Source of the DNA: Escherichia phage mobillu
DNA: 64,000 nucleotides
Direction: 5' to 3' (one strand)
Sequence record: MN850622.1
The notes below the pieces were generated by a model. It had not been told where the DNA came from. It made no database searches and saw only the letters and a program-made list of their open reading frames with translations. Both the position numbers and the translations under genes were made by a program. Shown in pieces: positions 1,856 through 42,067 of this stretch. Numbering within the stretch: position 1 is the first letter of the stretch; each line of letters begins with the position of its first letter.

Positions 1856-3438
1856 TATTTTACCTTAATGATATAGTTTAAAGAAATATTCCATGGGCGA
1901 GTTTCATTTCCAATTAATTCTGGACGATTCATGGTATATTTAGAGTTACGCTGAGACGCTGGATCAATTTCATATCCTTCGTTAGTAAAATATGAACGGT
2001 TATCCCAGTCAAGTCCTTTACGAGTACCAACAAAGTTTGAACGACGAGTATTACCAAATGCACCGGAATCGTCATGTTCACCAAAACCGCCAGCATGCTT
2101 ATGATATGACATCTGTTGTTTTTGCACTTCACCAACATATCCACCGGTACAACCTACCGCCAGACGAGGTTTACCGAATTGGTCATTACCATTAACATTA
2201 GGGTTAGTTAAATGGTTACCACGACCCGAGCCGCGAACAAATAAACCGCGCATATCAGGCAAGCCTGGGTTAGAAGAACTACCACCATATCGTGTCCCAA
2301 TTCTAGAAGCATATACCGGACATTCTGAAGCAGAAACGGTCCCACCGTGACAGAAGCGCCAGTCAGAACTCGGTAAACTATCTGCAGCCCACATTGTAAT
2401 AGCGCCAACTGGAAGAATTCGGTCTAATTCATTTTGAGTCACAATACGATTGCCTTGAATATAACCACCGGTCATATTGACATTACCCGTTATATTAGCT
2501 CCACCAGAACCAACCGTCAACGTATTATTAATGCGAAGCGTGCCATTAATAGTTTGTCCACCTCGTTGGTGGATAACATCAGCATTCCAAGCAAGGGCAG
2601 AAGAACCATCACCACCTGATTGGCTACCAGCTTGTGTAGTTAAACGAACAACTCCACGTAAAGAAGTTGTAGCCCCTCGCCCGTTTAATGTTGCGCCGGT
2701 CACTACAACTGAAGAGTTGTTACTATTTACTTCAGTCTGTGTCCCTAGTTTAACGACACCTTTATTAGTTTCTGATGCTACTGAATTCATAAAGGTATAA
2801 GGTGAAATTGCATAGCCTTCACGCAGGGTGCCTTGTTGTGCTTGAGCAACTGTAGCCAAACGAACAACACCGGTAATAGATTCGGTGGCGTCACCATTAT
2901 TTGGAGCAATTTGTGAAATAAGTTTAATTGCTAATTGTTGTGTTTTTAACGGGGTCATTGCCGTTGTATCGTCAGAACCAGCTAATGCCGCAGCAGAAGT
3001 TGAAATTTTAATTACACCATTTGTTGCTTCTGTTGATACTTTTGTCTGGAATACATTGTCTATTTTTTGATTCAATTTAAGCGGAGTAATTGATGCATCG
3101 TCAATAGTTCCTGTTACTGCTTCATCTTCAGTAGCATAACGAGTTAAGCCATATTGAGTTTCGGTTGCATTAGGATATTGTAGACGAGCATTCAGTGTTG
3201 CCGGAGTAACAGCTTTACTATTATCTAATCCATCAATAACTTCTTGTGGAGTAGCTATTTGAATAATTCCTGGTGTAGTAGTTGTTGCTTCCGGTACACC
3301 ATTAACACCTGAAGGAGAAATAGCAGCTAATGCGGCTTGGACATTAGTGACTGTATCTGGAAAATTCGACCCCGTAGGGTCGAATTCAACGTAAATGGAT
3401 TCGTTTGAAACGTGTTGGTATGTATTGTTATTACTCAT
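1855..3438 (-). CDS. 12: short tail fibre protein gp12
   Basis: 527 aa, near-identical over long stretches to recalled T4 gp12 (e.g. [28 protein letters not shown]...[11 protein letters not shown]). Confidence 0.95.
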
Positions 3439-24575: not shown

Positions 24576-24597
24576 GGAGGACTCCGGTCCTCCTTTT
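24576..24597 (+). terminator. intrinsic terminator
   Basis: GGAGGACT-CC-GGTCCTCC hairpin then TTTT. Confidence 0.7.
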
Positions 24598-24616
24598 GGA
24601 TAATAAAGGAGTTAAC

Positions 24617-25219
24617 ATGCGAAACCAAAATAATGATATTGACTCAATGTTCGAAGAGTTCCGAGATAAGGTAAATCCACCTACGTCTTTAGTTGATTCA
24701 TTACGATATGTTGCAACCGGACGTAAATGGTACTGGTCGTCTTCTTATGAGACCACCGAGAAAACGGCTAGCCATAGCAGAAAATCTTTATTAGCCCCAG
24801 GTATTATGATTCATGATATCGGAGCTATTGCTAAACTAGTTGCAGACCATGATATTAGATTCACTGATTTCGTTGCTCCTACGTGGTCTGTTTGTTGTTT
24901 AAACACTGAATGGGAATATATCAGCGAACGCTCTGAAGATTATTATGGCTTTAGAGATAAGCTTCTGAGGTCTAATATGTTTTATATCGATACAGAAGTT
25001 CTAGTCGATAATAAAAAATATTACTTTACGTTAATCATCGATTCTGAAACTATGTATGAAGGCAAGCCTTTGCTTAAAAGAGTTGATGCTTTAAGTGCTA
25101 TTGATGCGCTTTATGAAACTATGGTTGTTAGTCCTAATTTCACTAACAATTTAATCCTTGAGCAATTTATTATGGAATGTAGAGAATATGTCAAAGCCAA
25201 CCCTATACATGCCAAGTAA
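24617..25219 (+). CDS. hypothetical protein
   Basis: ATG MRNQNNDIDSMFEEF... after AAGGAG SD. Confidence 0.6.
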   Translation: MRNQNNDIDSMFEEFRDKVNPPTSLVDSLRYVATGRKWYWSSSYETTEKTASHSRKSLLAPGIMIHDIGAIAKLVADHDIRFTDFVAPTWSVCCLNTEWEYISERSEDYYGFRDKLLRSNMFYIDTEVLVDNKKYYFTLIIDSETMYEGKPLLKRVDALSAIDALYETMVVSPNFTNNLILEQFIMECREYVKANPIHAK

Positions 25220-25583
25220 GCCCTGGGCGTATGAATACAAGCGTAAATTAATCCCAAATGAAGTACTATTTGGCCCTATTTTAGCTTTAGCATTTTTAAT
25301 CTTTATGATTATAGGAGCTGTTTTAGATTCTAGTGAAGTTATATCGTCTGATGCAGCATTTTCATTAATGTTCGTCGCACCACTTATTGTACCGTTTTTA
25401 TTAATGCCTATTAATTGGGTAGGATATTGGCACCAAGGCCGTCATCACAGAGCCCGATTAAGAGAATGGAAAGTTCAGTGCGCAAAAGCCCAAGCTCAGT
25501 ATGATGAAGCTGTTAAAAAGTATGAATATGAAGAAGCTATGGAATTCGTTAAGGAAATAAGATGCAAAAGCCTCAACTCTTAA
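25188..25583 (+). CDS. small membrane protein, C-terminal ...EFVKEIR family
   Basis: Hydrophobic segments; start uncertain (overlaps upstream gene). Confidence 0.45.
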   Translation: MSKPTLYMPSKPWAYEYKRKLIPNEVLFGPILALAFLIFMIIGAVLDSSEVISSDAAFSLMFVAPLIVPFLLMPINWVGYWHQGRHHRARLREWKVQCAKAQAQYDEAVKKYEYEEAMEFVKEIRCKSLNS

Positions 25584-25921
25584 CCGTATGGCCTTCTCTT
25601 GGTGAGAACATTCTAATTTTTATTATGAGTATTGGCATGGGATTTGCCTTTGGATTAGTTGGATTTCTTATTGACGGCGTTGTGTTAGGATTTATAGGGA
25701 ACACTGGTGGATTCACAGACCAATGGCAGGACTTACGGTATACCCAAGCCTTTGCATCCATCGCATCATTTTGTACTGTAGTCTATTTTTACTACGATTT
25801 TATAAACCATAACAAGAAAAATAAAAAGATTTACGCTTCTCAAATGATTAGTTATAATGAACTTCTAGCTAAACGTGAAAATGAAACAATCGAAAACTTT
25901 ATTAAGGAATGTAGAAAATGA
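25562..25921 (+). CDS. small membrane protein, C-terminal ENFIKECR family
   Basis: ATG after AGGAAATAAG; two predicted TM stretches; conserved C-terminus shared with 28339 and 29540 ORFs. Confidence 0.55.
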   Translation: MQKPQLLTVWPSLGENILIFIMSIGMGFAFGLVGFLIDGVVLGFIGNTGGFTDQWQDLRYTQAFASIASFCTVVYFYYDFINHNKKNKKIYASQMISYNELLAKRENETIENFIKECRK

Positions 25922-26223
25922 GTAAGATTATTGAAATTAAAGTACCAGAGTTTAATGATGCCAAATCCGCTTCAGATGCAATTTATAAACTTCTGAATCA
26001 AGCTGAACGTATCGAAGAAGAAGCAACAAAGATCGCAGACCAATATGCCGTATCATTTTCTGTAGGTGATTATGGTAGCGGTCGTACTTATTATCCTAAG
26101 GGTGAAATCGTATCCCAGTGGATGAAAGATGAAATTGAAAATAATGGTGGCGATGTTAAGCGTGAAGGTAATGGTTACGTTATTACTGAAGGTGCTTGGG
26201 TTTCGTCTTCTGCGTTGTGCTAA
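25918..26223 (+). CDS. small protein, tandem paralogue 1 (C-terminal GWVSSS..C)
   Basis: 101 aa; C-terminus EGAWVSSSALC; ATGA overlap with upstream gene. Confidence 0.6.
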   Translation: MSKIIEIKVPEFNDAKSASDAIYKLLNQAERIEEEATKIADQYAVSFSVGDYGSGRTYYPKGEIVSQWMKDEIENNGGDVKREGNGYVITEGAWVSSSALC

Positions 26224-26232
26224 GGAATCGTT

Positions 26233-26505
26233 ATGTCTAAAGAACAAACCGAACTGGCTGAAGCTGTAGCAAAAATCTATGCAGCTATTGAGGCTGCCAA
26301 AGAAATTGCTGATAAACAAAACACAACATTCAACTTGTACCCAGCTTATGGTATGGGTGGAACCTATCATTCACCCGGACATCTTAAAGCCGATCTTGAA
26401 CGTTGTACAAAAAACGGCTATGCTGAATGGGCTGACGTTTACCAATACGACTACAACCTGAGCCTCGAAACCGGTGGTTGGGTCGCATCTTCTCACACTT
26501 GCTAA
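26233..26505 (+). CDS. small protein, tandem paralogue 2
   Basis: 90 aa; C-terminus GGWVASSHTC; junction TGCTAAGGAA shared with paralogue 1. Confidence 0.6.
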   Translation: MSKEQTELAEAVAKIYAAIEAAKEIADKQNTTFNLYPAYGMGGTYHSPGHLKADLERCTKNGYAEWADVYQYDYNLSLETGGWVASSHTC

Positions 26506-26514
26506 GGAAACAAT

Positions 26515-26712
26515 ATGTCTCGTGAATTAGATTGTGCTGTACGTACGGCAGTAGCTGCTCTGGAAAACCTGTTCCAAATTGCAACAGAAGAACGCGAAGA
26601 AGTTACATTATGGATTGAAGATAACGCAGGTCTGAATCTCCAGGACGCGATCTCATTATCCCACAATAGTATCACTGTTCAAGGCTGGGTATCATCTAGT
26701 TATTCTTGCTAA
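26515..26712 (+). CDS. small protein, tandem paralogue 3
   Basis: 65 aa; C-terminus QGWVSSSYSC. Confidence 0.55.
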   Translation: MSRELDCAVRTAVAALENLFQIATEEREEVTLWIEDNAGLNLQDAISLSHNSITVQGWVSSSYSC

Positions 26713-26715
26713 AAC

Positions 26716-26756
26716 AGTTTACAACAAGATAGGGCTATGTTATAGTAGTCCTATCA
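26716..26756 (+). promoter_or_regulatory. PeSL-like early promoter
   Basis: GTTTACA, TATAGT, inverted repeat GATAGGGCTA/TAGTCCTATC. Confidence 0.6.
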
Positions 26757-26774
26757 AAACAAATGGAGTCCACA

Positions 26775-27014
26775 ATGATTTATTACGAAAGTATCGGAAC
26801 CAAAGTGGTTGGTAAAACCATTACTCGTGAAAAGTTTGCAAAGATATTCGATATGCGTTATAAAAAATCTGAACACAAAGGCATCCGATTCGAAGATGCG
26901 CACTGTACAATTTGCCCTTATAATGAAGACATAAACGGTACAATCGTTCCATTGGTAGAGGCTTCACATGATGACCTCTGGGATGAATATAATATCGCAT
27001 GTCGTGAAATTTAA
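26775..27014 (+). CDS. hypothetical protein (Cys/His-containing)
   Basis: ATG MIYYESIG... 7 nt after GGAG. Confidence 0.5.
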   Translation: MIYYESIGTKVVGKTITREKFAKIFDMRYKKSEHKGIRFEDAHCTICPYNEDINGTIVPLVEASHDDLWDEYNIACREI

Positions 27015-27042: not shown

Positions 27043-27999
27043 ATGTTGTTAGTTATTGGTTCTCGTGCACTTCACTATCACGGTCTTATTGATTCTAGCG
27101 CTATTAAAAATAGTGATTGGGACTTTATTGCGGACCAAGGTTCTTGGAATGCATTCAAAAATCAAATGATGGGTGTATATGTTCACCAAGATAACCCTGA
27201 TGTCCAAGTTTTCAAATGCTTCCATAATGGACGCGAAACTCATTTTGAAGCATACATCGTTCCGGCTATCACTAACGTTCGCGAACTAGTCGGTGAACTC
27301 ACTCCTGAAGATTTCACGTCTTCTTATGACCTTTTAAAATACGCCAAGAAAAATTTGGCTAAAGACCGTTTGAACGGGTTTTACTGGGCAACTCCTGAGA
27401 TATGTCTTGCAATTAAGATGTCTCATCGTTTCAAGAAAAATAATCCATTCTTTTTAAAGACTATGAACCATATTCAGTATCTTCGTGGTAAAGGTGTTAC
27501 ACTGAACGATGAACTTACTGAAATTATGCTGAAACGCCAGAAAGAAACCTTGAATTATGCTCACCCAGTTCTTGACACTTCTAAAAGTGCGTTCTTTAAA
27601 GATGACATCTATACGTATGACCATGATACTATCCATGAAGCCATTGCACTAACTGACCAGCCTGCTTATAAGTTTTATATGAAAGAAGGCTCAGAAGTTA
27701 TGACATCACGCGAGAAGTTCGAATCATTACCAGAAATGGTTAAATTAGCCGGTGTATATGAAGAAGCTTGTGTATTAGCTCTTGAACGTTCACAGATTCC
27801 TAACGACTTTAAAATCCATCCACGTGATAGTTTTATGATGGCCCTTGAAAAGGTCTGTACATCAATCACATCAGGATGGTTCCGTGAGTTCGCTTGGGAA
27901 AATTATAGCAAAGTAGTAAGTATGTACCAAAGCTTAGGACACGACGATTACGTCAAGCGTTTCAAACAAAACTTTCATATGGTAAAACCTTTCAAATAA
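27043..27999 (+). CDS. hypothetical protein with nucleotidyltransferase-like N-terminal motif
   Basis: 318 aa; N-terminus VIGSRALHYHGLIDSSAIKNSDWDF resembles the G-S...D-x-D Pol-beta NTase signature (spacing longer than typical). Confidence 0.6.
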   Translation: MLLVIGSRALHYHGLIDSSAIKNSDWDFIADQGSWNAFKNQMMGVYVHQDNPDVQVFKCFHNGRETHFEAYIVPAITNVRELVGELTPEDFTSSYDLLKYAKKNLAKDRLNGFYWATPEICLAIKMSHRFKKNNPFFLKTMNHIQYLRGKGVTLNDELTEIMLKRQKETLNYAHPVLDTSKSAFFKDDIYTYDHDTIHEAIALTDQPAYKFYMKEGSEVMTSREKFESLPEMVKLAGVYEEACVLALERSQIPNDFKIHPRDSFMMALEKVCTSITSGWFREFAWENYSKVVSMYQSLGHDDYVKRFKQNFHMVKPFK

Positions 28000-28011
28000 T
28001 TTCACAAAACA

Positions 28012-28050
28012 GTTTACAAGGTCTGTAGTTGTTGATACTATAGACCTATC
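28012..28050 (+). promoter_or_regulatory. PeSL-like early promoter
   Basis: GTTTACA, 17 bp, TACTAT, inverted repeat around -10. Confidence 0.6.
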
Positions 28051-28079
28051 AAAACAAATGAGTGAATGGAGATATAAAA

Positions 28080-28280
28080 ATGACTACTTTGAATAAACGT
28101 TTCGGTAAAGCTAAACCTGGTTGTGCAGCAGAACGTCGTTATGTTTTCGCTCAGTTAGAAGATGTAGAGTATCAGATTAATCAAGTTCACATTACTGGTA
28201 TCGAGCCTATGTGTGGCCTTGAAGCTCTTCGTGAAGTTCGTGATGGGTATCGTCGTGACATCGAAGAAATGTCAAAATAA
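28080..28280 (+). CDS. hypothetical protein
   Basis: ATG MTTLNKRFGKAKPG... after TGGAGA SD. Confidence 0.5.
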   Translation: MTTLNKRFGKAKPGCAAERRYVFAQLEDVEYQINQVHITGIEPMCGLEALREVRDGYRRDIEEMSK

Positions 28281-28320
28281 GTGTACAAACTGATAGGACT
28301 ATGTTATAGTAGTCCTATTA
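28281..28320 (+). promoter_or_regulatory. PeSL-like early promoter
   Basis: TGTACA, TATAGT, inverted repeat GATAGGACTA/TAGTCCTAT. Confidence 0.6.
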
Positions 28321-28338
28321 AAACATGAGGAGAATATT

Positions 28339-28644
28339 ATGAAATTAGGCGAAACCAACCGAATTGGTCTTTTAACAATATTTGTATCACTTTTTTACGC
28401 AGCTCTTTCTGTTGCAGTATTACAAAAGGCTTACAGTATGGATGGTGTTCCTGGTTTTGTATTCTTATCGCCGTTTTTGCTATTCGTTGGAGCATTGTTA
28501 TTATATGCCACGACTAGTTTCGACCATAACGTCTGGGTCAATTATAAATGTAAATTGTCTGAAGAAGAACACGCAGAAGCTCGTAAAAAAGCTATTGAAT
28601 CTACCAATCTAGAAAATTTCATTAAAGAATGTCGAGGAAAATAA
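28339..28644 (+). CDS. small membrane protein, C-terminal ENFIKECR family
   Basis: 101 aa, two hydrophobic helices, C-terminus NLENFIKECRGK. Confidence 0.6.
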   Translation: MKLGETNRIGLLTIFVSLFYAALSVAVLQKAYSMDGVPGFVFLSPFLLFVGALLLYATTSFDHNVWVNYKCKLSEEEHAEARKKAIESTNLENFIKECRGK

Positions 28645-28645
28645 T

Positions 28646-29332
28646 ATGAATAGTTCTAAAGTGTTTAATAGTCAAGCTCGTGCAGTTGGTAGTTTTGCAC
28701 ATAACGTACAAAATGACCGAATCAAAAATGAACCAATGTTCTTTAATTGTGATTTGGGTTTTGCTTGGGATAATGGTGGCTCAATCACTCGTAGCTTTAT
28801 TGCCAATCTCCCAATTGATTGGACTAATCAACATGTTGTATTTGATTCTCGGGTTCATATGCTGATGCCTGGGTGGTATCCTGCTATCCCTGGATACCAC
28901 CATGACGATGTTCCTCGCCCTGATATTCCAGTTGGTCAACACTTTATTACTGCAGGACAACCTGACTATGACAACCCTCGTTACCATTCTGAACATATTC
29001 TTGGTCTTGTTAACGCTGACGTGTGTCCTACTCATTTTGCAACAGGAACTGCAGAGTTCAGTCAGATTCCTGATGGCGAACTTATCTATCGCCAGTGGCA
29101 CAAAGAAGTCCTCGAAAAAATTGAAAAAGGTGAACTAGAGAAATGGGAAGCTCCAGACCGTACTCTTCTTCAGTTTGATTGGCAAACATGGCACACTGGT
29201 TCTCGTGCAATTAGTAATGGATGGCGTTGGTTCGGACGTGTATCTCGTAATACAGACCGAGTTAAAAAGATTACCAATGAAATTCGTGTCAACGCTCAAG
29301 TTTATCTGGAATTCCCTATGGAAGGCTGGTAA
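28646..29332 (+). CDS. hypothetical protein; candidate 2OG-Fe(II) oxygenase fold
   Basis: 228 aa; GYHHDDVP (HxD-like) and WHTGSRAISNGWRWFGRVS (His then R-x-S about 12-15 residues later); motif-level only. Confidence 0.6.
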   Translation: MNSSKVFNSQARAVGSFAHNVQNDRIKNEPMFFNCDLGFAWDNGGSITRSFIANLPIDWTNQHVVFDSRVHMLMPGWYPAIPGYHHDDVPRPDIPVGQHFITAGQPDYDNPRYHSEHILGLVNADVCPTHFATGTAEFSQIPDGELIYRQWHKEVLEKIEKGELEKWEAPDRTLLQFDWQTWHTGSRAISNGWRWFGRVSRNTDRVKKITNEIRVNAQVYLEFPMEGW

Positions 29333-29613
29333 TGATTAACAAAACATATTGGTCTAATATAGACGACGGCAATAAAGGTATTTCATACTATTCAATAGAT
29401 TGGACAGGATGTCCATCCTACTTAGTTAAACGTATTTGCCAAGAATTTAAAATCGACCAGCCAGCAGGTATTATCGTGAACAGATACATTAACGGTTATC
29501 AACCTATCGATGAAGTAATACGAACAACTCAAGCTGATCTTGAAAAGTTTTTCAATAAGTGCCAATGGATCGCAGGATGGATTATATTTGTACCATCGGT
29601 ATGGTTTTTTTAG
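29332..29613 (+). CDS. hypothetical protein with hydrophobic C-terminus
   Basis: 93 aa; ends at a T7 homopolymer overlapping the next reading frame. Confidence 0.55.
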   Translation: MINKTYWSNIDDGNKGISYYSIDWTGCPSYLVKRICQEFKIDQPAGIIVNRYINGYQPIDEVIRTTQADLEKFFNKCQWIAGWIIFVPSVWFF

Positions 29614-29824
29614 TACTAAGGTGAGTTCTTTCGGTTTTGTTGATATTATTGCTATCTTATTAGCATCTACTATCGTAAGTATTATTGGTGGCATCATTGG
29701 CGGCGGCACTGTCGCTATCATTATTAATCTTATTAAAAGTAGTTTACAAGAACATAAAGACAAGATAAAAGCCAAGAATAATGAAGTTGAACGTTTTATT
29801 ACCGAATGCAGGAATTTGAGATGA
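29540..29824 (+). CDS. ENFIKECR-family C-terminal module; start undefined (possible frameshift fusion with 29332 ORF)
   Basis: Frame has TM segment and C-terminus NNEVERFITECRNLR but no ATG near the previous gene's stop; GTG at 29621 possible. Confidence 0.4.
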   Translation: MKSFSISANGSQDGLYLYHRYGFFSTKVSSFGFVDIIAILLASTIVSIIGGIIGGGTVAIIINLIKSSLQEHKDKIKAKNNEVERFITECRNLR

Positions 29825-39210: not shown

Positions 39211-39684
39211 ATGATTATCAATGAAAACTCTTGGCACTTTAAAATTTATGCCGCGTTCAATAGTACATGGAATCGCCCGAAAACGTTGTGTGCTTATTTT
39301 TGGAAAACGTTAATCCCGGTATTGGCTGTTTCAATTATTGGATTTGCGATTTTAGCAGCAGTCACAATTATTGGCCAGGAAATTTTAACTAAATTCTTTG
39401 TTTTTAGCAGTCTATGGACATTAGTTCCGGCCTCAATTGGCGTAGGCATTTTAATGGTAGCAGTCATGGCTTTTATTGCTACCGGGTTGGTAATTGGTCC
39501 GTCTTGGTTGTTAGACAAATATAACGACAGAAAATATTATAAAGAAATTGAGTTCATTGCACAAAACCAAGAACGAATTAAAAATGGACTTGAACCTATT
39601 GAACGTAAGAAATCATTAATAGGTGAATACCTTAAAGCTCGTAAAGAAAAAGTCTGTCCTACTCTTGAATATAAGGCTAAATGA
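39211..39684 (+). CDS. membrane protein (3-4 predicted TM helices)
   Basis: 157 aa with long hydrophobic stretches; stop overlaps next ATG. Confidence 0.6.
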   Translation: MIINENSWHFKIYAAFNSTWNRPKTLCAYFWKTLIPVLAVSIIGFAILAAVTIIGQEILTKFFVFSSLWTLVPASIGVGILMVAVMAFIATGLVIGPSWLLDKYNDRKYYKEIEFIAQNQERIKNGLEPIERKKSLIGEYLKARKEKVCPTLEYKAK

Positions 39685-40670
39685 TGAAAACGATTGTTAA
39701 GGCTTACTTTGGTAGCCACCTTTATGGAACGTCTACTCCTGAATCTGACGTCGATTTTAAAGAAATTTATGTCCCTCATGCTCGTGATATCTTGACCGGT
39801 AACGTTAAAGAACACATGAGCAAGAACACGAATAACACATCTTCTAAGAACACAAAAGACGACGTGGACCATGAGTTGTATAGTCTCAAATATTTCTTTA
39901 AACTAGCTGCGGATGGTGAAACCGTCGCATTAGATATGCTTCACACTCCACAAAGTCTAGTAGTTAAATCTGATTTGCCTGATGTATGGAAGTATATTCA
40001 AGATAACAGGTCTCGTTTCTATACCACTAACATGAAATCTTATTTAGGGTATGTCCGTAAGCAAGCTTCTAAATACGGTGTCAAGGGTTCTCGACTGGCT
40101 GTTCTTCGTCAAGCCCTTAAACGTTCTAATGAATGGGGACAATACTTTGATAATGGTGCAGTAATTCGTTTATCACATATGAAGAATGTTCTGCCTGTAG
40201 GTGAATTTGCTTCATGGGTTGAAACCGAAAACGAGAAAACAGGTAAGCAAACATTCTATAATCTGTTAGACCGTAAATTCCAAGACACATTAACCAATAA
40301 AGAGTTCAATGCCATCCTGGTTAAACTGGAAGAGAACTATGGTGAACGTGCTCGTAAGGCAGAAGCCAACGAAGGTATTGACTGGAAAGCATTGAGTCAT
40401 GCATGTCGTGGTGGACTTCAACTATTGGAAATTTACAAAACCGGCGACCTGGTTTACCCACTTCAGGATGCTCCATTTATTCTCGATGTTAAGCTTGGTA
40501 AACATACGTTTAAAACTGTACAAGAATTCCTAGAAGATATCGTTGACCAAGTTGAACATGCGTCAGAACAAGCCGCTAAGAACGGTATGCAACAAAAAGT
40601 AGATATGAGTTTCTGGGATGATTTCCTTGAGCAAGTCTATCTCGAAAATCATAATTCTTACTATAAATAA
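39681..40670 (+). CDS. Pol-beta superfamily nucleotidyltransferase
   Basis: 329 aa; N-terminal FGSHLYGTSTPESDVDF fits G-S-x(9-13)-D-x-D NTase signature; later acidic residue (ALDML). Confidence 0.7.
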   Translation: MMKTIVKAYFGSHLYGTSTPESDVDFKEIYVPHARDILTGNVKEHMSKNTNNTSSKNTKDDVDHELYSLKYFFKLAADGETVALDMLHTPQSLVVKSDLPDVWKYIQDNRSRFYTTNMKSYLGYVRKQASKYGVKGSRLAVLRQALKRSNEWGQYFDNGAVIRLSHMKNVLPVGEFASWVETENEKTGKQTFYNLLDRKFQDTLTNKEFNAILVKLEENYGERARKAEANEGIDWKALSHACRGGLQLLEIYKTGDLVYPLQDAPFILDVKLGKHTFKTVQEFLEDIVDQVEHASEQAAKNGMQQKVDMSFWDDFLEQVYLENHNSYYK

Positions 40671-41058: not shown

Positions 41059-41086
41059 AAACGAAATGAGTAAATTGGAGAATAAA

Positions 41087-42067
41087 ATGTTCAACGTTCA
41101 AATCAAAAAAGGTATCTATCGTAATAACGAAATCTCTGGTTCTTATGTTGCCACAAAGACCTGGTTCCCGGCAAAGCTTAATCCTGAATGTTCCCACTTA
41201 GGTGATGGTAAAATTTTCGTTATGATTGATGGATCTGAACGTGGAGTATGGGTCTTCAAATCAGACATCGTAATGGAAGGAGTTGAGACGTCACCAGTTG
41301 CAGTTGTTGAAAGCACTGAAGATATGAAAACTCGTATCAACAAACGCTTTAAAGTAATGAACATGATGACGAATGGCATTATCGATGGCAAAATTCGTTC
41401 ACTCATTATTTCAGGTGCAGCTGGTATTGGTAAGACGTATTCTCTGGATAAAGCACTTAATAATGCTAATGATAATGGTTTCATCAAATACAAAAGCATT
41501 AATGGTAAAATCTCTGGTATTGACCTTTACGAACAACTTTGGCTCAACCGTGATGCAGACAGCGTTCTCTTAATCGATGACGTTGACGTATTCTCAGATA
41601 TGGACATCCTGAACCTTCTTAAAGCAGCATTAGATACCGGAGATAAACGCAAAGTTTGTTGGAGCACTGCGTCATCTTATCTCGAGGATAAGGGTATTGA
41701 TAAAGAATTTGAGTTTGAAGGTACTATCGTTTTCATTACAAACGTTGATATCGATAAAGAGTTAGAACGGGGTTCGAAACTTGCTCCACACCTTCAAGCT
41801 TTAGTATCTCGTTCAGTGTATCTCGACCTTGGAGTACACTCTAATGAAGAGATTATGGTTCGAGTTGAAGATGTAATATTATCTACTGACATGATGCAGA
41901 AACGTGGTCTGACGGATGCAGAAACGTATAAAGCATTGTCCTGGATGAAGGCTAACGTATCTCGTCTTCGCAATGTATCATTACGTACGGCTCTTTATGT
42001 AGCAGATTTTATTTCAACTGATAAAGATGGTTGGGAAGAAATCTCGGAAGTTACTTTACTGAAATAA
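41087..42067 (+). CDS. AAA+/P-loop ATPase
   Basis: Walker A GAAGIGKTY and Walker B VLLIDDVD; about 100-aa N-terminal domain. Confidence 0.7.
   Translation: MFNVQIKKGIYRNNEISGSYVATKTWFPAKLNPECSHLGDGKIFVMIDGSERGVWVFKSDIVMEGVETSPVAVVESTEDMKTRINKRFKVMNMMTNGIIDGKIRSLIISGAAGIGKTYSLDKALNNANDNGFIKYKSINGKISGIDLYEQLWLNRDADSVLLIDDVDVFSDMDILNLLKAALDTGDKRKVCWSTASSYLEDKGIDKEFEFEGTIVFITNVDIDKELERGSKLAPHLQALVSRSVYLDLGVHSNEEIMVRVEDVILSTDMMQKRGLTDAETYKALSWMKANVSRLRNVSLRTALYVADFISTDKDGWEEISEVTLLK

What the first reader, a model, noticed from the sequence alone, without database searches (positions are those of the whole stretch)
27043..27999. Second nucleotidyltransferase-like protein
The N-terminus VIGSRALHYHGLIDSSAIKNSDWDF resembles the minimal nucleotidyltransferase G-S...(S)D-x-D signature, though the spacing is longer than canonical. 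With the 39681 NTase this gives two candidate NTases within 13 kb of accessory DNA.
Basis: inference. Interest (0 to 1): 0.45.

Follow-up and report, generated by a model that had tools for sequence, protein, structure and literature searches.

The report
Phage nucleotidyltransferase with tail-tagged partner proteins
The gene encodes a real, probably active nucleotide-transferring enzyme found almost only in viruses. In nearly every phage that has it, it sits just downstream of one to five small acidic proteins that all end in the same tail, Trp-x-x-Ser-Ser-x-x-Cys, which points to an undescribed enzyme-plus-tagged-protein system.

Summary
ORF 27043..27999 (+, 318 aa) is a conserved gene of an RB69-like T4-type phage (RB69ORF134c equivalent).

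By sequence it belongs only to two Pfam domains of unknown function, DUF7277 and DUF7275. The DUF7275 helical domain has no structural match in the PDB. The family is large (about 1,600 clusters at 50% identity) and essentially virus-only.

The main new result concerns the neighbours. In 80 of 88 loci (20 of 22 lineages) the gene is preceded on the same strand by 1-5 small acidic ORFs. Each ends exactly in W-x(1-2)-S-S-x(0-2)-C-stop. There are 213 such ORFs in the upstream zone and 8 elsewhere. The window has three, at 25918-26712, and none anywhere else in its 64 kb. Searches seeded from the small proteins find the NTase downstream in 27 of 27 informative cases.

The best reading is that the enzyme acts on this tail, most likely by nucleotidylylating a serine. 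That chemistry is inferred, not shown. There is no HEPN partner and no CD-NTase features, and I found no literature on the family.

The parts
27043..27999 (+). Nucleotidyltransferase gene (318 aa; DUF7277 + DUF7275; equivalent to RB69ORF134c)
27043..27357 (+). N-terminal Pol-beta-type NTase core, aa 1-105: strand 2-5, helix 6-12, strand 26-31, helix 32-41, strands 45-47, 54-61 and 64-73, then two helices
   Evidence: Secondary structure of the model. The best PDB matches are all NTases.
27058..27063 (+). G6-S7, the hG[GS] motif at the strand 1 / helix 1 junction
   Evidence: G 100%, S 97% in 150 representatives.
27115..27123 (+). D25-W-D27, the metal-binding D-x-D at the start of strand 2
   Evidence: D25 99% (otherwise E), D27 100%. 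Position in the model.
27247..27249 (+). E69, candidate third catalytic carboxylate on strand 64-73
   Evidence: E 87%, D 11%. Strand assignment.
27358..27996 (+). C-terminal all-helical DUF7275 domain (aa 106-318). Invariant polar residues: K125, H128, K139, H194, D195, H198, E240, E241, E248, R249, S277, G278, R281
25918..26223 (+). Tail-tagged small protein A (101 aa, pI 4.6), ending ...GAWVSSSALC-stop
   Evidence: PHROG 899. Annotated CDS G53_00134.
26233..26505 (+). Tail-tagged small protein B (90 aa, pI 5.0), ending ...GGWVASSHTC-stop; RB69ORF137c
   Evidence: PHROG 899.
26515..26712 (+). Tail-tagged small protein C (65 aa, pI 4.2), ending ...QGWVSSSYSC-stop; RB69ORF136c
   Evidence: PHROG 4882.
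26711..26762 (+). Early-promoter-like site (TTTACA-17-TATAGT at 26718-26746) whose -10 element lies inside an inverted repeat (GATAGGGCTA...TAGTCCTATC). Related copies occur at 28013-28060 and 28275-28363. It probably drives ORF 26763 and the NTase.
   Evidence: Promoter scan. 89-nt and 20-nt direct repeats D1 and D4. Sequence.
26763..27014 (+). Intervening 83-aa ORF (PHROG 3723, RB69ORF135c). It is not part of the module outside T4-like phages.
   Evidence: No multi-lineage neighbour cluster apart from the tail proteins.
28646..29332 (+). 228-aa ORF of PHROG 1843 (function unknown); a possible accessory neighbour, present in a minority of loci
   Evidence: PHROG 1843 matches both this ORF (5.5e-96) and the gene next to the NTase of phage DSS3_VP1 (7.8e-26). 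Found in 27 of 88 loci and 3 lineages. No Pfam or PDB match.

Best explanation
ORF 27043..27999 encodes a catalytically intact Pol-beta-fold nucleotidyltransferase. It belongs to an uncharacterised, essentially virus-only family (DUF7277 NTase core fused to the novel DUF7275 helical domain). It works as a module with the small acidic proteins encoded immediately upstream (three here, 25918..26712). All of these carry the invariant C-terminal tag W-x-x-S-S-x-x-C-COOH. Proposed mechanism: the N-terminal core binds NTP and Mg2+ through G6-S7, D25, D27 and E69. The highly conserved DUF7275 domain forms the other wall of the cleft and docks the tail. The enzyme then transfers a nucleotidyl group, possibly several, to a serine hydroxyl of the tail, which matures or switches a family of diversified small phage effector proteins early in infection. 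What is shown: the fold, the conserved catalytic residues and the reciprocal gene linkage. What is inferred: the direct enzyme-tail interaction, serine as the acceptor, and the biological role.
For: 2. Linkage. A BLAST cluster of 148 small ORFs lies upstream on the same strand in 16 of 22 lineages. The strict tail pattern W..SS..C-stop gives 172 hits in 1.64 Mb read in six frames, and 164 of them are within 3.5 kb upstream of the NTase on its strand. The relaxed pattern gives 213 upstream against 8 elsewhere (0.70 versus 0.0027 per kb), in 80 of 88 loci and 20 of 22 lineages, with 1-5 copies per locus. The window has exactly three hits in all 64 kb, all directly upstream.
3. Reciprocity. Three of three contig look-ups started from tail proteins show the PF23942+PF23940 gene 0.7-1.1 kb downstream. 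An IMG/VR scan seeded only with tail-protein sequence gave 26 loci. In 24 the NTase lies just downstream; the other two contigs end right after the tail ORFs.
4. Nothing else in the surrounding gene content is conserved across most lineages.
5. The tail is selected at the protein level. Both serine positions use all six codons, with 24-30% AGY; Cys uses TGC and TGT; all three stop codons occur.
6. Precedents. The minimal NTase MntA adenylylates its neighbour-encoded partner HepT (PMC7641770, abstract seen). MenT1 can transfer phosphate to a protein Thr in its own active site when bound by the small upstream-encoded MenA1 (PMC11375011). An NTase-like enzyme tailors the phosphorylated C-terminal Ser of a lasso peptide (PMC9266682).
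Against: Gene linkage does not say which partner is the substrate. The closest structural relatives (MenT) act on tRNA 3' ends and ANT/Lnu on small molecules, not on proteins. The spacing between S-S and the terminal Cys varies from 0 to 2 residues, and is 4 in one case, so the role of the invariant Cys and Trp is unexplained. Eight of 88 loci have no tail ORF within reach, including the two most divergent members tested (DSS3_VP1 and Gordonia phage Cucurbita). The invariant His/Asp/Glu cluster of DUF7275 may indicate a second, unknown chemistry.
Confidence: 0.45

Rival explanations
1. MenT-like RNA-end NTase controlled or targeted by the small proteins. The enzyme adds nucleotides to RNA 3' ends (for example tRNA acceptor stems), either to shut off host translation or to repair phage or host tRNAs. 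The tail-tagged proteins would be MenA1-like inhibitors or pseudosubstrates, or specificity adaptors that dock through the conserved tail.
Against: The AbiEii/DUF1814 sequence model does not match. tRNA genes lie within 10 kb only in the Tevenvirinae lineage and 4 other IMG/VR loci (plus Gordonia phage Cucurbita), so that linkage is inherited synteny rather than a general feature. The most conserved feature of the small proteins is the extreme C-terminal tag, not the helix. One to five ancient paralogues per phage is unusual for an antitoxin. The family is absent from bacterial genomes, where toxin-antitoxin systems reside.
Confidence: 0.25
2. RiPP-like maturation. The NTase activates a tail serine as Ser-O-NMP. 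DUF7275 then eliminates or cross-links it, for example dehydroalanine followed by a thioether with the terminal Cys, or a Trp-Cys link. Alternatively, a short tail peptide is released as a peptide-nucleotide.
For: Several tandem precursor-like genes precede one modifying enzyme. Trp, Ser-Ser and a carboxy-terminal Cys are invariant. S-x-x-C-COOH resembles the motifs that form aminovinyl-cysteine in epidermin-type peptides (from my own knowledge, not tested here). DUF7275 is a novel domain with an invariant His/Asp/Glu cluster that is unnecessary for simple nucleotidyl transfer.
Against: No dehydratase, cyclase, decarboxylase, protease or exporter gene is consistently linked. The Ser-to-Cys spacing varies from 0 to 2, which is awkward for one defined ring. 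The proteins are 60-150 aa with conserved bodies, so they look like folded proteins rather than a leader plus core. The Gly-Gly before Trp is not conserved.
Confidence: 0.12
3. Stand-alone NTase acting on a small molecule (ANT(2'')/Lnu-like, for example inactivating an antiphage metabolite) or on nucleic acid, with the upstream small ORFs functionally unrelated passengers.
Against: Enrichment of the tail ORFs is about 260-fold and reciprocal, across lineages whose other neighbours differ. No aminoglycoside or lincosamide NTase sequence model matches.
Confidence: 0.07

Closest known systems
MenT1 / MenT3 / MenT4 and AbiEii (DUF1814 nucleotidyltransferase toxins)
   Different: The Pfam AbiEii model gives no match, and identity in the structural alignments is about 8-11%. 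The C-terminal lobe is much larger and has no structural match. The family is viral rather than a bacterial toxin-antitoxin system. The partner proteins are 1-5 paralogues defined by a C-terminal W-x-x-S-S-x-x-C tag. tRNA activity is untested.
MntA-HepT (MNT-HEPN) type VII toxin-antitoxin system
   Same: A minimal Pol-beta NTase covalently nucleotidylylates the hydroxyl of a residue in a partner protein encoded next to it (PMC7641770). This is the closest mechanistic analogue of the proposed reaction.
   Different: The partner here is not a HEPN protein, the proposed acceptor would be Ser in a C-terminal tag rather than Tyr, the enzyme carries an extra 200-aa domain, and no MNT sequence model matches.
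ANT(2'')-Ia (AadB) and LnuA antibiotic nucleotidyltransferases
   Different: No sequence-model match. The context is a phage early region rather than a resistance cassette. A conserved protein partner is present.
PsmN, the NTase-like tailoring enzyme of the lasso peptide pseudomycoidin
   Same: An NTase-homologous enzyme that modifies the C-terminal serine region of a ribosomal peptide encoded in the same cluster (PMC9266682).
   Different: PsmN acts on an already phosphorylated Ser of a lasso peptide, in a bacterial cluster with a kinase and lasso machinery. None of that is present here.
CitX / MdcG (holo-ACP synthases of citrate lyase and malonate decarboxylase); comparison from my own knowledge, not tested here
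   Same: NTase-superfamily enzymes that attach a nucleotide-derived prosthetic group through a phosphodiester to a Ser of a small acidic carrier protein.
   Different: No sequence or structural hit was obtained here. The carrier proteins and metabolic context are unrelated.

Membership tests
Pol-beta-like nucleotidyltransferase superfamily | hG[GS] motif between the first strand and the following helix | tested here: met
   V-I-G6-S7 sits at the junction of strand 2-5 and helix 6-12. G is 100% and S 97% conserved.
Pol-beta-like nucleotidyltransferase superfamily | [DE]h[DE]h metal-binding pair on the second strand | tested here: met
   D25-W-D27-F lies at the start of strand 26-31. Conservation is 99% and 100%.
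Pol-beta-like nucleotidyltransferase superfamily | Third carboxylate on a later strand | tested here: met
   E69 lies on strand 64-73. It is E in 87% and D in 11% of representatives.
Pol-beta-like nucleotidyltransferase superfamily | Canonical spacing of 9-13 residues between G[GS] and the first Asp | tested here: not met
   The spacing is 17 residues in this protein and 13 in the shortest homologues of the alignment. The extra residues form a variable loop. This is a soft criterion.
Pol-beta-like nucleotidyltransferase superfamily | Alpha/beta core fold superimposable on solved NTases | tested here: met
Pfam DUF7277 + DUF7275 | Both models above the gathering threshold | tested here: met
   95.0 and 264.1 bits against a cut-off of 27.
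DUF1814 / AbiEii / MenT toxins | Match to the family sequence model | tested here: not met
   No Pfam family other than the two DUFs at E <= 1. No PDB sequence hit, even with a profile.
DUF1814 / AbiEii / MenT toxins | C-terminal motifs III and IV (for example MenT3 K189 and D211; PMC7450476) | tested here: inconclusive
   Invariant K125, H128 and R129 lie on the first C-domain helix, which aligns structurally to MenT3. Residue equivalence could not be checked without coordinates.
DUF1814 / AbiEii / MenT toxins | Bacterial toxin-antitoxin context with an AbiEi/MenA antitoxin | tested here: not met
   There is one locus in 185,579 prokaryotic species genomes, and it looks like a phage contig. 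No PADLOC match. The upstream partners have no known family.
DUF1814 / AbiEii / MenT toxins | Nucleotide addition to tRNA 3' ends | not testable with these tools
   Requires biochemistry.
MNT-HEPN (MntA/HepT) | Adjacent HEPN-domain partner | tested here: not met
   The neighbours have no Pfam HEPN hit. The only neighbour family recurrent across most lineages is the tail-tagged proteins.
CD-NTase (cGAS/DncV-like) | cGAS-like fold or sequence model, and a CBASS-type context | tested here: not met
Aminoglycoside/lincosamide NTases (ANT(2''), Lnu) | Family sequence model | tested here: not met
RiPP biosynthetic clusters | Precursor genes next to the modifying enzyme, plus known dehydratase, cyclase, protease or exporter components | tested here: inconclusive
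   The tandem small genes plus one enzyme are present. No known RiPP enzyme domain is linked.
RlaP NTase (applies to the other gene, 39681..40670) | Match to PF10127 above threshold | tested here: met
   49.5 bits against a cut-off of 23, E 5.9e-13. The family is described in PMC7824862.

The most novel reading that the evidence does not exclude
This would be a virus-exclusive 'tag-and-modify' post-translational system. A dedicated NTase-DUF7275 enzyme recognises a short C-terminal tag (W-x-x-S-S-x-x-C-COOH) shared by a diversified family of small acidic phage proteins. It covalently installs a nucleotide, an oligonucleotide or a nucleotide-derived cross-link on the tag, creating protein-nucleotide conjugates used in host takeover or counter-defence. 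It would be a new class of protein modification signal in phages, present in the model phage RB69.
Probability: 0.4. Interest if true: 0.85.

Novelty: new variant of a known kind. Interest (0 to 1): 0.7.

Why it matters
The enzyme fold is familiar, but the module appears undescribed. The family has about 1,600 clusters at 50% identity and occurs in 1.4% of sequenced phage genomes: T4-like phages, Phapecoctavirus, Otagovirus, Acinetobacter, Aeromonas and Vibrio phages, jumbo phages, a cyanophage-like contig, and giant-virus relatives. It is tied to small proteins that share an invariant C-terminal tag.

If the tag is the acceptor, this would be the first dedicated enzyme-plus-tag protein modification system known in lytic phages. 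It would also assign a function to two Pfam DUFs and at least three PHROGs (2141, 899, 4882).

It is directly testable in RB69 (ORF134c with ORF136c-139c) by co-expression and mass spectrometry. It may also reveal a new family of early host-takeover or anti-defence effectors.

Tried and rejected

2. Functional link to tRNA genes. tRNAs lie within 10 kb only in the Tevenvirinae lineage and 4 other IMG/VR loci, plus Gordonia phage Cucurbita. This is inherited synteny, not a general link.

3. HEPN partner, CD-NTase, or known defence system. No Pfam or PADLOC support.

4. Sequence relatives with solved structures. None, even with profiles, for the NTase or the tail proteins (only designed helical bundles).

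5. Bacterial homologues or toxin-antitoxin context. One phage-like MAG contig only.

6. Known domains in the tail proteins, including the larger 120-210 aa members. None.

7. Other conserved neighbours. Only generic early genes were found: ribonucleotide reductase, DNA ligase, NAMPT and glutaredoxin (identified by reading the sequences, not by a search). PHROG 1843 is linked in only 27 of 88 loci.

8. Literature. Nothing for DUF7275, DUF7277, PF23940, PF23942, phrog_2141, phrog_899 or RB69ORF137c, and nothing relevant for phage NTase plus C-terminal cysteine.

9. Foldseek against AFDB50 was unavailable. The tail-protein alignment A3 was too variable to seed a locus scan, so the narrower A4 was used instead.

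10. The sigma-70 promoter and terminator scans were not enriched enough to define the operon.

Full report
**The observation.** ORF 27043..27999 (+) is an intact 318-aa frame beginning MLLVIGSRALHYHGLIDSSAIKNSDWDF; the reverse strand is closed. The window comes from an RB69-like T4-type phage. The protein is 99.1% identical to a hypothetical protein of Mosigvirus phage vB_EcoM_G53 and corresponds to RB69ORF134c. It lies in a block of RB69-type ORFs downstream of T4-like e.6 to e.3 and upstream of nudE and lysozyme e. tblastn finds the gene in 733 of 50,697 phage records, mostly from Escherichia, Acinetobacter, Aeromonas, Pseudomonas, Vibrio, Enterobacter, Klebsiella, Gordonia and Streptomyces phages. 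Protein searches give 2,118 clusters at 90% identity and 1,579 at 50% identity, almost all about 300 aa long.

**Is it a nucleotidyltransferase?** By sequence it matches only two Pfam domains of unknown function: DUF7277 (aa 3-101) and DUF7275 (aa 120-305). It also matches PHROG 2141, function unknown. Nothing matches in PADLOC, NCBIfam or PDB sequences, even with a profile.

An AlphaFold2 model built on 37 homologues is confident (pLDDT 92.5, pTM 0.87). The N-terminal 105 residues form a strand-helix-strand-helix unit followed by three strands:
- G6-S7 sits at the first strand/helix junction.
- D25-x-D27 sits at the start of the second strand.
- E69 sits on the last strand.

Across 150 representatives at 50% identity:

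| Residue | Conservation |
|---|---|
| G6 | 100% |
| S7 | 97% (otherwise G) |
| D25 | 99% (otherwise E) |
| D27 | 100% |
| E69 | 87% E, 11% D |

**Surroundings: the main result.** I fetched 80 IMG/VR loci with 10-kb flanks, added seven phage records and the window, called ORFs and clustered them. One neighbour family stood out: 148 small ORFs on the NTase strand, with a median position about 0.85 kb upstream, in 16 of 22 NTase lineages. Their common feature is the extreme C-terminus, W-x-x-S-S-x-x-C followed by the stop codon.

| Test | Result |
|---|---|
| Strict pattern W..SS..C-stop, six frames, 1.64 Mb | 172 hits, 164 within 3.5 kb upstream on the NTase strand |
| Relaxed pattern W-x(1,2)-S-[SA]-x(0,2)-C-stop | 213 upstream against 8 elsewhere (0.70 versus 0.0027 per kb) |
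| Loci and lineages with at least one upstream tail ORF | 80 of 88 loci, 20 of 22 lineages, 1-5 copies per locus |
| Whole 64-kb window, both strands | exactly three hits |

The three window ORFs are 25918..26223 (...GAWVSSSALC), 26233..26505 (...GGWVASSHTC) and 26515..26712 (...QGWVSSSYSC). They are tandem, 9 nt apart, and each is followed by TAAGGAA-N5-ATG.

The conservation is at the amino-acid level. Both serine positions use all six Ser codons, with 24-30% AGY. Cys uses TGC and TGT, and all three stop codons occur.

The proteins are acidic (median pI 4.4, net charge -8, median length 93 aa). They share an N-terminal amphipathic helix ending in ...A-[DN]-E-x-G-[IL]-x-F, often a Y-G-x-G-G-x-Y-Y segment, a variable acidic loop, and then the tail. 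They have no Pfam family (PHROG 899 and 4882, function unknown) and no PDB relative. Even the larger members (120-210 aa) contain no known domain.

**Reciprocity and distribution.** Starting from tail proteins found in the 5.8-billion-protein collection, three of three contig look-ups show a PF23942+PF23940 gene 0.7-1.1 kb downstream on the same strand. An IMG/VR scan seeded only with a tail-protein alignment (pattern ...YGMGG) gave 26 loci. In 24, the NTase lies immediately downstream (hmmsearch E <= 1e-78). The other two contigs end just after the tail ORFs.

Other neighbours are not conserved across most lineages. In Acinetobacter phage Stupor the module sits between genes 41 and 61, and in other phages among unrelated small early genes. 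Recurrent neighbours are generic: ribonucleotide reductase, DNA ligase, NAMPT and glutaredoxin, identified by reading the sequences.

tRNA genes lie within 10 kb only in the Tevenvirinae lineage and a few other loci. A pattern scan of one genome from each of 185,579 prokaryotic species found a single locus. It is a 75-kb contig binned into a Thermosynechococcus MAG, and it carries two tail ORFs, the NTase and a DNA ligase, so it looks like a phage contig. The two most divergent members examined (DSS3_VP1, 26% identity; Gordonia phage Cucurbita) keep the catalytic residues but have no tail ORF nearby.

**How it most likely works.**
- Shown: the fold, the preserved catalytic residues, and a tight, reciprocal, lineage-independent linkage between this enzyme and proteins defined by a C-terminal tag.
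- Inferred: the enzyme binds NTP-Mg through the N-terminal core; the invariant DUF7275 surface docks the invariant tail; a nucleotidyl group is transferred to a tail serine hydroxyl.

Three precedents support the inference. MntA adenylylates its neighbour-encoded partner HepT (PMC7641770). MenT1, the best structural match, transfers phosphate to a protein Thr when its small upstream partner MenA1 binds (PMC11375011). An NTase-like enzyme tailors the C-terminal Ser of a lasso peptide (PMC9266682).

The rivals are:
- a MenT-like RNA-end transferase for which the small proteins are inhibitors or adaptors;
- a RiPP-like activation followed by cross-linking that involves the terminal Cys;
- a stand-alone enzyme with passenger neighbours.

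The variable Ser-to-Cys spacing and the unexplained invariant Trp, Cys and His/Asp/Glu cluster leave the chemistry open.

Expression is probably early. A T4-early-like promoter with its -10 element inside a stem-loop lies at 26711-26762, just upstream of ORF 26763 and the NTase. Related copies lie at 28013-28060 and 28275-28363.

**Comparison and novelty.** The protein is a member of the Pol-beta NTase superfamily by fold and motifs. It is not a member of DUF1814/AbiEii, MNT-HEPN, ANT/Lnu or CD-NTase by their sequence models or contexts. I found no publication mentioning the Pfam or PHROG identifiers, the RB69 ORF, or such a tail.

I rate it a new variant of a known kind: an NTase with a cognate protein partner. 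The partner type, a C-terminal tag shared by paralogous small proteins, and the accessory domain are both new.

Noticed in passing
window 26711-26799, 28013-28060, 28275-28363: Three related intergenic cassettes, each with a T4-early-like promoter (GTTTACA ... TATAGT) whose -10 element sits inside an inverted repeat (GATAGGGCTA / TAGTCCTATC), followed by a Shine-Dalgarno sequence. They bracket the ORF26763+NTase unit and the next two ORFs. They resemble the 'promoter-early stem-loop' shuffling cassettes described for T4-type phages (from my own knowledge).
   Followed up: partly
window 24596..25219, 25158..25583, 25562..25921, 28339..28644, 29540..29824: Five ORFs end with, or carry near their C-terminus, a similar motif: F-[IV]-x-E-[CI]-R (…QFIMECRE…, …FVKEIRCK…, …NFIKECRK, …NFIKECRGK, …RFITECRNLR). 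Three are T4 e.5/e.4/e.3-like and several look membrane-embedded. This is a second recurrent C-terminal motif in the same region, of unknown meaning.
   Followed up: no
window 28646..29332; L007 3099..3755: A 228-aa ORF of PHROG 1843 (function unknown, no Pfam or PDB match) lies 0.65 kb downstream of the NTase. A distant PHROG 1843 member lies next to the NTase of roseophage DSS3_VP1. It is present in 27 of 88 loci (T4-like phages, two Aeromonas phages, one other). It may be an accessory component or simply syntenic.
   Followed up: partly
window 39681..40670 and 41066..42067: The other NTase is an RlaP-family (RNA-ligase-associated Pol-beta) protein. It is followed by a 333-aa ORF with a Walker-A-like GAAGIGKT motif (read from the sequence, not searched).
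   Followed up: partly
L092 (RB69) 2185..2491: In the RB69 reference record the type-A tail protein is annotated as two overlapping short ORFs (ORF139c and ORF138c) instead of one of about 100 aa. This suggests a frameshift, a pseudogene or a sequencing error.
   Followed up: no
protein P0275 (134 aa, metagenomic): This looks like a read-through fusion of two tail-protein units. The first tail (…GWAASSQSC) is internal, and the second unit ends …CVWDHSGCAF, so it lacks the canonical terminal Cys.
   Followed up: no
L091 (JAGVDA010000266.1, 'Thermosynechococcus sp. WC_1' MAG): The only hit in prokaryotic genomes is a 75-kb contig carrying two tail ORFs, the NTase and an ATP-dependent DNA ligase-like gene. 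It is probably a phage contig binned into the MAG.
   Followed up: partly
BFVD hits A0A3G5AJ90 (Sylvanvirus), A0A3G5AE53 (Satyrvirus); J7I4W1; A0A142IE91: DUF7275 also occurs in longer (508-571 aa) giant-virus proteins. In some phages the two domains appear as separate short proteins (168-aa DUF7275 only; 117-aa DUF7277 only). One metagenomic protein (P0054) has DUF1190 in place of the N-terminal domain.
   Followed up: no
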